Positions 6,462-9,219 of a stretch of DNA of 64,000 nt are shown in pieces (positions within the stretch are counted from its first letter, which is position 1; every line of letters starts with the position of its first letter). The DNA lies in the NCBI GenBank assembly GCA_038087875.1, contig CM075989.1, positions 3,472,001 to 3,536,000 on the forward strand, given 5' to 3'. The notes under the pieces were generated by a model. That model made no database searches, had not been told where the DNA came from, and worked only from the letters and a program-made list of their open reading frames with translations. Both the position numbers and the translations under genes were made by a program. This stretch comes from Malacoraja senta (lineage: Eukaryota).

Positions 6462-8873
6462 GTGAGTTATACATCGATTTCACACTGCTGAAGTGGTTTT
6501 TGTTACAGGCTATTCCCAGGGAAACGAACACCCAACTTATGTCTGCTACTACACATGAACGATCTCCCGTGATATTATTAAATACAAAAGTCCAACGTAG
6601 ATACATATTAGTTTAGTTTAGAGATACAGCATGGAAACAGACCCTTCGGCCCACCGGGTCCATGCCAACCAGCGATCGCTGCACACTAATACTATCCTAC
6701 ACACACTGGGGACAATTTACAATTTTACCAAGCCAATTAAACTACAAACCTGGTCGTCTTTGGAGTGTGGGAGGAAACCGGAGAAAACCCACGTGGTCAC
6801 AGTGGGGATGTACATACGGACAGCCCCCGTAGTCAGTATCGAACCCAGGTCTCTGGCACTGTGAGGCTGTAACTCTACCTCTGCACCACCATGCCGCCAT
6901 GTGTTTGTTCCTACCAAAGGTAGAACTCAGTTTCCTCTCACTCTCCACTTTTAGTCATTGTTCTTTCTCATCAGTCGTGTGTGCTTTTGATGCCACTCAT
7001 TACAATGCTGTGGAGGTTTGGTTACCATATCAAGTGATTTTTGTGTTTCCCCTATTTACAGACAAAATCAACATGGGTGTCTGTAAAAATGCAATCTGCT
7101 CATTATCTGGGAACATCCTGTGTTCCTTTGTGTTTATCAATCCCTTTGTATCTCTAGAAGCAGTTCCAAAGTGATAGAAAATATCAAATGCATAGGCTTT
7201 GCCCTGCCCCCCCCCCTCTCTTGCAGATTTCTTCCCTCCCTACAATCAGTCTGAAGAGGGTCCCGATCCAATACTTTACCTATCCATCCTCTTCAGAGAT
7301 GTTGCCTGACCTACTGAGTTATTCAAGCACTTGTTTCTATTCATTTATCAAACACATTTTTGACATATCCACACGTATTTGCTCAACAATCAGTTGTGTG
7401 TAAATTGAATAATATCTTCTTGAATGAATGTTTATTGTTTTAATATCCACTTTTATTAACTCGGAAGAATGCTGAACACTTGGACTGATTCTGTAGTCGC
7501 AGTTGATAAAGAATGGGGAAAACATCAGTGGACATGTCAGAGCTGACCATAAACGGATAAAGCAGCCACATAATGCATAATTCTTTACACGGTTCGCTGT
7601 GTATGTGATATATTTAATACTGCGATGGGTTTGTTTTCAACTGGGAGAAAAATGGATTTAACAAAGTGCTTGATTTCTTTTGTTCAGCAGAGAAGTTTTG
7701 CCTAAGGCAATCAGTAAATTACTCTCACCAATGTAAATCAATGAACCTTCGCCAATTTTAGTTTAGTTACGAGATACATTGCGGAAACAGCCCCTTCAGC
7801 CCACCAAGTCCACGCCGACCAGCGATTCCCCGCACACACTCAACACTATCCTACACACTTGGGACAATTTACCATTTGCAATTTTACCAAGCCAATTAAC
7901 CTCCATGAATAAAGACTTTTTTTGACATTTGGTTTCCCAAAACAGTGTACAATTCTGGCCTCTTGCACACCCTGGATTTCATTTGCTATCATCATCGAGT
8001 CCTCAACCAGGACACAGATACTGGAATTTCCCGTGGCCTTTCTACTTTAAAACCCCTGTTCCTACTAGCTCTTTAAGTGGCTTTATGTGAAATATTTCTG
8101 AAGTAAGGTGCAGTCTGAAGTAGGGTCCCAACCCAAAACGTAGCCTATCCCTGTCCTCCAGGGATGCTGCCGGACCCGCTAAATTACTCCAGCACTTTGT
8201 GCTCTATGTACGATTCCAGAGTTTGCAGTTTCTTCTGTCTATTTATGTTAAACTTTGTTTCAGTTCAGTTTAGTATCGTCACGTGTACCGATGTACAGAG
8301 AAAAGCTTTTGTTACGTGCTAACCAGTCAGCGGCAAGACGAAACGTAATTACAATGGAGCCATTTGCAGTGTACAGATATATGATAAGGGAATAACGTTT
8401 AGTGGAAAGTAAAGCCAGTAAAGTCCGACCAAAGAGAGTGCGAAGGTCACCAATGAGGTAGATAGTAGTTCAGGACTGATAACACCACTGTGGCACCGGC
8501 TACTATTATTGGGCTTTCAATAATGTAGGTTCTAAGAAACTATGAGAAAGGATGATGGAGCAGAAATAAATAATCTGGTTGGTCAGTTGAGAATTGAGAA
8601 CCATCCATGTTGGGATAAGTCCTCAGACAAGTTAAATCCTCAGATTCCCTCCCCATAAGGGCATTGGTGAACCAGCTGGATTTTTATTCATTTACCTTTA
8701 GTTCAGATTTCTGAATTCTAGTGCAGTAATCTTACTGCTGCTCCAGCACACTGAAAAAAGTGTGAGCAAAATATTACCACAACCAGAGTTAGACTTAATT
8801 TGGTTTGTTTTATTTCCAATCACTAAATGACCGCAGGGATGTGGGCTCTAGGTAAACAAGGCATTTGGAGTAT

Positions 8874-9094
8874 GTTTAAGAAGGAACTGCAGATGCTGGA
8901 AAATCGAAGGCAGGCAGAAATGCTGGAGAAACTCACCCGGTGAGGCAGCATCTATGGAGCGAAGGAAATAGGCAACATTTCGGGTCGAAACCCTTCTTCA
9001 GTCTGAAGAAGGGTTTCTACCCGAAACGTTGCCTATTTCCTTCGCTCCATAGATGCTGCCTCACCCGCTGAGTTTCTCCAGCATTTTTGTCTAC
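8874..9094. mobile_element. Fold-back Penelope-pLTR-derived mini-element with hammerhead motifs; 17-bp flanking direct repeat
   Basis: Inverted arms centred on cttcag|t|ctgaag (about 9002). CAAGGCATTTGGAGTAT occurs at 8857-8873 and 9095-9111. Confidence 0.8.
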
Positions 9095-9219
9095 CAAGGC
9101 ATTTGGAGTATTGTTCTGTTCACCCAACTATTGTAAGGATCTGCAGCTTTTTGAGAGGGTGCAGAAGAGGTTTGCCAGAATAGTTAGACCAGTTTAGTTT
9201 TGTTTATTGTCACAGGTAC

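What the first reader, a model, noticed from the sequence alone, without database searches (positions are those of the whole stretch)
8857..9111. Family of short fold-back, hammerhead-bearing elements, each with its own long target duplication: a candidate non-autonomous Penelope-derived retroposon
Seen: more than 20 related 100-250 bp pieces (core tgctggagtaactcagcggg...cttcttcag / ctgaagaagggtctcgacccgaaacgtcacc...cccgctgagttactccagca). Many are near-perfect hairpins, in several cases folded at or beside the CTGAAGA core. At least seven copies have their own flanking direct repeats: 17 bp (8857-8873/9095-9111), 10 bp (16477-16486/16733-16742), 13 bp (16904-16916/17085-17097), 14 bp (19451-19464/19563-19576), 14 bp (19660-19673/19895-19908), 16 bp (25715-25730/25936-25951) and 13 bp (50414-50426/50519-50531). 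One arm usually extends to the full terminus (tgtaggaaggaactgcagatg) and the other is variably truncated. The same sequence is the pLTR attached to GIY-YIG fragments at 290-1027 and 17150-17605. Known: Penelope-like elements carry minimal hammerheads in their pLTRs and often insert with an inverted pLTR. Inference: these units inserted independently by target-primed reverse transcription, since variable long duplications are not MITE-like. They may be ribozyme-processed RNAs mobilised by the PLE RT/endonuclease, a retrozyme-like system easily mis-annotated as DNA MITEs.
Basis: partly seen in the sequence, partly recalled or inferred. Interest (0 to 1): 0.8.

Follow-up and report, generated by a model that had tools for sequence, protein, structure and literature searches.

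The report
Hairpin stubs of Penelope-like retrotransposons
These short hairpin-shaped repeats in a cartilaginous-fish genome are two head-to-head copies of the end of a Penelope-like jumping gene, often framed by a duplicated stretch of flanking DNA, and are most likely the shortest form of that class's known inverted-end insertions rather than a new ribozyme-driven mobile element.

Summary
All 7 claimed direct repeats are exact. The window holds 46 related arms, 12 head-to-head pairs, 8 intact minimal hammerhead motifs, and the same sequence downstream of two GIY-YIG remnants of a Neptune-like Penelope element. The host is an elasmobranch.

Three corrections. Paired arms are only 75-93% identical. 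The second arm is not variably truncated: arms end at two fixed sites about 35 nt apart, the published Penelope 'tail' (9 of 10 full pairs long+short, none long+long). Folds cluster about 30 nt upstream of the ribozyme cut, at a native palindrome, so cleavage does not set the ends. There are no tandem arrays, so the retrozyme label fails.

This matches the published Penelope insertion unit (inverted pLTR, junction palindrome, one-sided tail, target duplication) shrunk to its ends. At least 10 different junctions in 12 pairs argue that most hairpins were made anew. One post hoc hint of copying as a unit survives: copies at 4397 and 25729 share an off-centre junction and two rare variants. Empty sites could not be tested. 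This scan reached the same reading earlier in two other genomes. Interest is modest; the copies suit a test of how inverted pLTRs form.

The parts
8857..8873 (+). left target-site duplication (17 bp) of the focal element
   Evidence: exact match to 9095-9111
8874..9006 (-). long arm: inverted pLTR end including the ~35-nt tail (about 8874-8910)
   Evidence: maps to reference 130 back to -1
8998..9006 (.). fold axis: 9-bp near-palindrome native to the pLTR, shared by both arms; matches an initiator-like YYANWYY
   Evidence: 9-bp overlap of arms; same motif upstream of the core in 5 of 9 unfolded copies examined
8998..9094 (+). short arm: pLTR end without tail
   Evidence: ends at reference 94
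9003..9030 (+). minimal type I hammerhead motif (GUU triplet; subfamily shared with 50427)
   Evidence: descriptor hit
8974..9001 (-). minimal hammerhead motif of the long arm
   Evidence: descriptor hit
9095..9111 (+). right target-site duplication (17 bp)
1..452 (-). inverted pLTR of a longer 5'-truncated copy (tail-bearing arm; split by another repeat at about 69-291; cut by the window start)
452..720 (+). broken C-terminal GIY-YIG endonuclease of a Neptune-like Penelope element
   Evidence: tblastn E 2e-16 to P0042; full relatives carry RVT_1 and GIY-YIG
723..1413 (+). direct pLTR after the endonuclease stop, interrupted at about 1028-1390 by another repeat; short end
3775..4008 (.). hairpin, short+long, with an internal tail-to-hammerhead (head-to-tail) piece
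4397..4610 (.). hairpin, long+short, off-centre 15/6 junction, 9-bp exact duplication (4384-4392 / 4610-4618)
9594..9804 (.). hairpin, cut arm + long arm, extra stem II piece at the junction; no duplication found
10863..11000 (-). single long arm with a few folded-back bases at the palindrome (used as numbering reference)
16477..16742 (.). hairpin, long+short, 10-bp duplication, extra stem II piece at the junction
16904..17097 (.). hairpin, long arm + arm cut at reference 42, 13-bp duplication
17123..17606 (+). second GIY-YIG remnant followed by a pLTR with intact hammerhead (17515-17542), short end
   Evidence: tblastn E 3.5e-9; descriptor hit
19451..19576 (+). single short arm starting at the palindrome, 14-bp duplication
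19660..19908 (.). hairpin, long+short, folded at the palindrome, 14-bp duplication
25715..25951 (.). hairpin, long+short, off-centre 15/6 junction, 16-bp duplication
50098..50314 (.). hairpin, long+short, most diverged arms
50414..50531 (-). single short arm (same subfamily as the focal element), 13-bp duplication
50909..51121 (.). hairpin, long+short, 8/12 junction
51432..51642 (.). hairpin, short+long
56032..56181 (.). hairpin, short+short, folded near reference 24-29

Best explanation
The hairpins are two head-to-head copies of the pLTR end of a Neptune-like Penelope retrotransposon, likely each made anew as a dead-on-arrival insertion by the autonomous element's endonuclease and reverse transcriptase.

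Shown here: pLTR identity, head-to-head polarity, two fixed 3' ends, one long plus one short arm, long variable target duplications, and folds clustered at a native palindrome upstream of the hammerhead cut.

Inferred steps: (1) the enzyme, probably a dimer, nicks both target strands 10-17 bp apart; (2) each nick primes reverse transcription inside the element RNA, one at the distal start (long arm, with tail) and one at the proximal start (short arm); (3) both cDNAs stop after about 95-130 nt, near the palindrome, which may be the RNA's 5' end (initiator-like) or a pause site; (4) their 3' ends anneal by the palindrome or a few matching bases and are filled in. One primed end alone would give the single arms; longer runs would give ordinary truncated copies with an inverted pLTR. 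The hammerhead would be carried along and would not set the ends.
For: The arm follows the stop codon of two GIY-YIG remnants. Their full relatives have RT, a CxxxxCxxC linker and GIY-YIG, the Neptune/Nematis layout (PMC8557442).

The published unit matches point by point: head-to-head inverted pLTR, junction palindrome, 31-bp tail on one side, 8-10 bp duplication (PMC3846280); 30-40 bp tail often at one end only (PMC8557442).

The Anolis PAc protein cleaves and extends both strands, starts at two internal sites that bound the tail, is predicted to be a dimer, and does not need hammerhead cleavage in vitro (PMC11167929).

Here: 9 of 10 full pairs are long+short, 0 long+long, 1 short+short (binomial p 0.011 for 9 or more discordant). 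At least 10 junction types in 12 pairs; the two exact-palindrome folds (8874, 19679) belong to different subfamilies. The two arms of one element are more alike than arms of different elements (0.844 vs 0.801, permutation p 1.5e-4) and share a rare variant in 4 of 12 elements (p 0.019). In 5 of 9 long+short pairs the short arm reaches further 5', so each arm holds sequence the other lacks. The share of hairpins with an intact duplication (5 of 12) fits arm divergence (4.6 expected), so arms and duplications can be equally old.
Against: The long arms of 4397 and 25729 share two rare non-CpG variants absent from their own short arms, and the two elements share the off-centre 15/6 junction (apart from a 5-nt insertion) with unrelated flanks. 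It is the only such pair of 618 at a 3-carrier cut-off, but 1 of 11 at a 4-carrier cut-off and absent at 2; the test was set after I saw the pair. In 2 of 9 long+short pairs the long arm reaches further 5' (16488, 50909). Within-element likeness could also come from arm-to-arm conversion after insertion. 5 of 12 hairpins show no duplication of 8 bp or more. No empty site was seen. The RNA 5' end at the palindrome is a motif match only (5 of 9 copies). Only 12 pairs from one window; steps 1-4 are borrowed from a different Penelope clade.
Confidence: 0.65

Rival explanations
1. Some hairpins, once formed, are transcribed and copied as whole units by the Penelope enzyme: a true non-autonomous fold-back retroposon beside the products made anew.
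For: 4397 and 25729 share a junction and two rare long-arm variants, with different duplications and unrelated flanks. Both outer ends carry the presumed RT start region. pLTRs alone can mobilise enclosed DNA in trans (PMC3846280).
Against: At least 10 junctions in 12 pairs. The shared-variant signal depends on the cut-off and was found post hoc. Each of the two elements also has a rare variant on both of its arms that the other element lacks, which would need later conversion. A 90-bp RNA duplex of -160 kcal/mol would be a poor RT template (inference).
Confidence: 0.2
2. Same insertions made anew, but the inverted arm arises by self-priming (snap-back) on one nucleic acid, with the tail set by endonuclease resolution, as proposed in the literature.
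For: Folds sit on a self-complementary 9-mer. Both arms share subfamily and rare variants. Self-priming is proposed in PMC3846280; endonuclease-made tails in PMC8557442.
Against: In 5 of 9 long+short pairs each arm has sequence the other lacks. Exact folds leave a 1-nt loop. Off-centre joins with short overlaps and inserted pieces look like joins of two strands.
Confidence: 0.3
3. Retrozyme-like element: hammerhead-cleaved, circularised RNAs are the transposition intermediates.
For: 8 intact minimal hammerhead motifs. One tail-to-hammerhead junction inside 3775-4008. Animal retrozymes are proposed to derive from pLTRs (10.64898/2026.07.22.740005). A circular template would still carry the sequence upstream of the cut, so arm starts alone do not exclude it.
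Against: No tandem units: 0 of 12 close pairs share orientation and no such array at 3000-27500. One sense ribozyme per strand, without stem III loop, predicted buried in the duplex. No change on both sides in any of 8 pairs over 16 copies. Ends do not map to the cut.
Confidence: 0.05
4. A DNA MITE whose terminal inverted repeats happen to derive from a pLTR.
For: Short, palindromic and abundant.
Against: Duplications of 10, 13, 13, 14, 14, 16 and 17 bp with unrelated sequences; ends differ by a 35-nt tail; single arms carry duplications too.
Confidence: 0.02

Closest known systems
Insertion unit of endonuclease-bearing Penelope-like elements: inverted 5'-truncated pLTR, junction palindrome, one-sided tail, target duplication (PMC3846280; PMC8557442)
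   Same: Head-to-head polarity, palindrome at the fold, tail of about 35 nt on one side, variable duplications, hammerhead in the pLTR; 1-1413 is an ordinary example.
   Different: Here the unit is usually shrunk to 100-250 bp with no coding sequence, folds cluster at one spot, duplications are longer (10-17 bp against 8-10 bp in the Adineta examples), and density is high (46 arms in 64 kb).
Neptune (or Nematis) clade Penelope-like elements
   Same: C-terminal GIY-YIG; closest full proteins carry RT, a CxxxxCxxC linker and GIY-YIG.
   Different: No RT or linker survives in the window, so the clade rests on relatives; no tree was built.
Poseidon element of Anolis carolinensis (PAc; PMC11167929)
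   Same: Two 3' ends bounding a tail, downstream of a minimal hammerhead whose cut does not set the inserted ends.
   Different: Different clade. In PAc the start sites lie inside the ORF; no ORF start was identified in these arms.
Non-LTR (animal) retrozymes (PMC7229834; 10.64898/2026.07.22.740005)
   Same: Short, non-coding, type I hammerhead, related to pLTRs, long duplications when present.
   Different: Retrozymes are head-to-tail tandem units with at least two same-sense ribozymes that release a monomer; these are head-to-head with one ribozyme per strand.
Non-autonomous Chlamys elements such as MRC1 (PMC8557442)
   Same: Non-coding derivatives sharing the 3' end of an autonomous Penelope-like element.
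   Different: Those form pLTRs and head-to-tail multimers; fixed families of hairpins are not shown here.

Membership tests
EN+ Penelope-like element insertion (pLTR-derived) | Sequence is the pLTR downstream of a C-terminal GIY-YIG endonuclease | tested here: met
   Arm follows the remnants at 452-720 and 17123-17281. The two stretches of the first remnant give no GIY-YIG Pfam hit on their own; GIY-YIG is hit in 7 of 12 relatives scanned, 3 at or above the curated cut-off.
EN+ Penelope-like element insertion (pLTR-derived) | Inverted copy joined head-to-head | tested here: met
   12 of 12 close pairs
EN+ Penelope-like element insertion (pLTR-derived) | 30-40 bp tail at one end only | tested here: met
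   Ends at 89-99 and 123-131; 9 of 10 full pairs long+short
EN+ Penelope-like element insertion (pLTR-derived) | Variable target-site duplication | tested here: met
   7 exact repeats of 10-17 bp among 22 units tested, against 2 of 462 controls
EN+ Penelope-like element insertion (pLTR-derived) | Duplication present once at the empty site | tested here: inconclusive
   No such joint among the 15 shown; 80,247 were hidden
EN+ Penelope-like element insertion (pLTR-derived) | Minimal type I hammerhead in the pLTR | tested here: met
   8 descriptor hits against 1 in 30 controls. Stem II 94% paired, stem I 56%, no two-sided changes. No Rfam hit at gathering score. Cleavage untested.
Neptune clade | Zn-finger-like linker between RT and EN, and RT phylogeny | tested here: inconclusive
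   Linker seen in relatives P0042, P0043, P0076, P0095, P0124; no RT in the window
Non-LTR retrozyme | Head-to-tail tandem units with at least two same-sense hammerheads | tested here: not met
   0 of 12 close pairs in direct orientation; no array (3000-27500 only)
Non-LTR retrozyme | Unit ends set by ribozyme cleavage | tested here: not met
   22 of 24 paired arms extend upstream of reference 29; the cut is after 31
Non-LTR retrozyme | Self-cleaved linear and circular RNA monomers in cells | not testable with these tools
   Needs RNA end mapping
Non-autonomous retroposon (copied as a unit) | Copies share one structure and linked diagnostic variants across the unit | tested here: inconclusive
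   At least 10 junctions in 12 pairs; one linked pair, cut-off dependent
DNA MITE | Symmetric terminal inverted repeats and fixed short duplication | tested here: not met

The most novel reading that the evidence does not exclude
A subset of the hairpins are master elements copied whole by the Penelope enzyme: a protein-free fold-back retroposon that looks like a MITE but moves through RNA, with the 4397/25729 pair as two offspring of one master. The fixed long+short rule would be the genomic fossil of two-ended priming by a dimeric RT-endonuclease.
Probability: 0.2. Interest if true: 0.65.

Novelty: new member of a known kind. Interest (0 to 1): 0.35.

Why it matters
The class and its inverted-end insertion form are published, so this is not a new system. 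Its value is as material. How Penelope-like elements make inverted pLTRs and one-sided tails is still open (self-priming, endonuclease resolution and internal double initiation have all been proposed). These minimal insertions hold both ends, the fold and the target duplication within 250 bp and cover about 8.5% of this window (37 hand-bounded intervals), so a whole genome would test the models by counting. They could also be mis-annotated as MITEs, and they are a likely source of intronic double-stranded RNA. If some are copied as units, that would be a new non-autonomous form.

Tried and rejected
No whole genome is held, so no genome-wide census. Rfam at gathering score: 0 matches.

More copies elsewhere: 0 in metagenome contigs, prokaryote genomes, viral contigs and plasmids; these collections are not expected to hold fish DNA. 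The scan's look-ups by sequence and by place gave nothing.

Empty sites: four runs laid on 8500-20300 were swamped by repeats (about 1.4 million contigs each; 15 joints shown, 80,247 hidden), so the test is inconclusive. Contigs of organisms C and D run from unique flank through the left duplication and 22 bases into the 8874 element, below the tool's 31-base bridging rule: only a weak hint that the insertion is shared and old. Summed depth suggests a very large family but is no copy number. Loose ends at 19894 were not used as evidence for the short end, because their consensus resembles the tail. Expression: no RNA holder listed.

Idea that duplications are younger than the arms (which would imply copying as a unit): rejected, 5 seen against 4.6 expected. 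Covariation support for the hammerhead: none. Modelled stem II is also rare in single arms (0.001-0.17), so folding models say little about activity. Segmental duplication behind 4397/25729: rejected, flank scores 7.5 over 200 bp. The random-position control was not used because it appears to include real repeats (about 1% of draws at 13 bp or more). AT preference of targets: none (0.56 vs 0.54).

Nine literature searches found no description of this family in sharks or rays. Repbase and Dfam could not be searched, and the preprint's supplementary tables, which cover one chondrichthyan, were not seen.

Full report
Setting. No genome was held. The DET1 exon in the window is 97% identical to that of the ray Narcine bancroftii and 95% to the shark Hemiscyllium ocellatum, and at most 86% to the other 64 of 66 hits. 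The host is therefore an elasmobranch, probably a batoid.

Observation. The seven claimed direct repeats are exact. A blind longest-match search of 33-bp flanks found 10 bp or more for 5 of 12 hairpins and 2 of 10 selected single arms, against 2 of 462 mismatched controls; two more hairpins gave 8-9 bp and five gave less. An nhmmer profile finds 46 arms and none in 5 controls. I number the arm from the A of AGTCTGAAG (position 1): the hammerhead core starts at 4 and the predicted cut follows 31. All 12 pairs within 60 bp are head-to-head with 3' ends outward (on 45 of the 46 arms). Paired arms are 75-93% identical, so these are old insertions; the focal one still folds at -160 kcal/mol.

Identity. 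The same arm lies downstream of the stop codon of two GIY-YIG remnants, 452-720 and 17123-17281 (tblastn). The two stretches of the first remnant gave no GIY-YIG Pfam hit on their own. Of 12 relatives scanned, 7 hit GIY-YIG and 4 hit RVT_1 (in P0028 the RT looks like a different, fused element). Five show a CxxxxCxxC-type linker before the endonuclease, the Neptune/Nematis layout described in PMC8557442 (12 of 19 passages seen). The copy at 1-1413 is an ordinary truncated element: a tail-bearing inverted pLTR, the endonuclease remnant, then a direct pLTR with the short end. The hairpins are the short extreme of that series.

Ends. Of 45 arms mapped, 17 end at 89-99 and 17 at 123-131; 5 fall between, 5 stop early and 1 is cut by the window edge. 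The difference is the Penelope tail: 31 bp, optional, at the 3' end of one inverted pLTR in PMC3846280 (11 passages and the Discussion seen), and 30-40 bp, often at one end only, in PMC8557442. Of 10 pairs with both arms reaching 85 or beyond, 9 are long+short, 1 short+short and none long+long (p 0.011 for 9 or more discordant if the ends were independent); the arm at 51036 was classed short from the alignment. PMC11167929 (parts 1-2 of 4 read) shows that the Anolis enzyme cleaves and extends both strands, starts at two internal sites that bound the tail, and does not need ribozyme cleavage in vitro.

Folds. Sixteen of 24 paired arms begin at position 8 or earlier, and 22 of 24 before 29. Unfolded copies show a native near-palindrome there (TCAGTCTGA, or a G variant), matching an initiator-like YYANWYY in 5 of 9 copies examined (the initiator consensus is recalled). 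PMC2377424 (6 passages) places the Drosophila Penelope promoter and start inside the pLTR, and PMC3846280 reports palindromes at inverted junctions. Several single arms also begin at this spot. The 12 junctions are of at least 10 kinds. In 5 of 9 long+short pairs the short arm reaches further 5', in 2 they tie, and in 2 the long arm does. Where each arm has sequence the other lacks, one cannot simply be a copy of the other unless later deletion intervened.

Ribozyme. A minimal descriptor gives 8 hits against 1 in 30 controls. They fit the minimal type of PMC4209133 (parts 1-2 of 4 read): extra base after A9, G10.1-C11.1 pair, palindromic 15.2-16.2, no loop 3; that paper expects such motifs to work as dimers and found low activity. 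Rfam gives no hit and 16 copies give no two-sided changes. A hairpin transcript has one sense ribozyme, with stem II probability 0.000 in three hairpin models, though single arms reach only 0.001-0.17. Retrozymes are tandem repeats with at least two ribozymes (PMC7229834, 12 of 19 passages; 10.64898/2026.07.22.740005, parts 1-3 of 5 read, supplements not seen). That test fails here.

Made anew or copied as units? The two arms of one element resemble each other more than chance (p 1.5e-4) and share a rare variant in 4 of 12 elements (p 0.019): one template, or later conversion. Duplications are no better preserved than arm divergence predicts. Against this, 4397 and 25729 share an off-centre junction and two rare long-arm variants, with unrelated flanks. 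The pair is unique among 618 at one cut-off, 1 of 11 at the next and absent at the strictest, and I noticed it before defining the test. I give copying as a unit for some hairpins 0.2. The empty-site test was inconclusive.

Verdict. These are real insertions of a known class in a known architecture, reduced to a minimum. Confidence that they derive from Penelope pLTR insertions is about 0.9, that most were made anew about 0.65, and in the two-nick, two-start steps about 0.4. PMC8969392 (6 passages) lists inverted pLTRs and short 3' extensions as peculiarities of individual copies. Nine searches found no paper on this family in elasmobranchs; Repbase and Dfam were not searchable. Two earlier reports of this scan on other genomes reached the same reading; I had stated mine before seeing them, and they are not independent evidence.

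Noticed in passing
window 9653-9675 and 16622-16636: Two hairpins carry an extra piece of stem II ending at GAAAC, three bases before the predicted cut, followed by CTT and a restart of the arm; possibly an aborted copy or template switch near the ribozyme.
   Followed up: no
window 3868-3917: Inside a hairpin, a sense tail is joined directly to the hammerhead start (head-to-tail); could reflect a tandem or circular template.
   Followed up: partly
window 24225-24504: Minus-strand partial tandem (tail, upstream pLTR, hammerhead arm, tail) overlapping a short plus arm; not counted among the 12 pairs.
   Followed up: partly
window 23715-23802: A further small head-to-head remnant with internal deletions, not counted among the 12 pairs.
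   Followed up: no
window 8874-9094, 50427-50519, partly 19465-19560: A distinct subfamily; in 8874 and 50427 the cleavage triplet is GUU and stem I starts with a U-G pair, and 50427 has a UUCG loop with a U-G pair in stem II, so pairing is kept by one-sided changes.
   Followed up: partly
window 27100-50000: Only 1 of 46 arms lies in these 23 kb, against 33 in the first 27 kb; the stretch holds long reverse-transcriptase-like and transposase-like frames (28915-31466, 35971-36564, 42509-46575; labels from recalled motifs, not searched).
   Followed up: no
window 48795-49970 (-): Large coding exon of DET1; several hairpins lie within 2 kb of it.
   Followed up: yes
window 61747-63701 (-): Broken LTR-retrotransposon pol-like frames (label from recalled motifs, not searched).
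   Followed up: no
window 20355-20554 and 52671-52870: Two 200-base assembly gaps.
   Followed up: no
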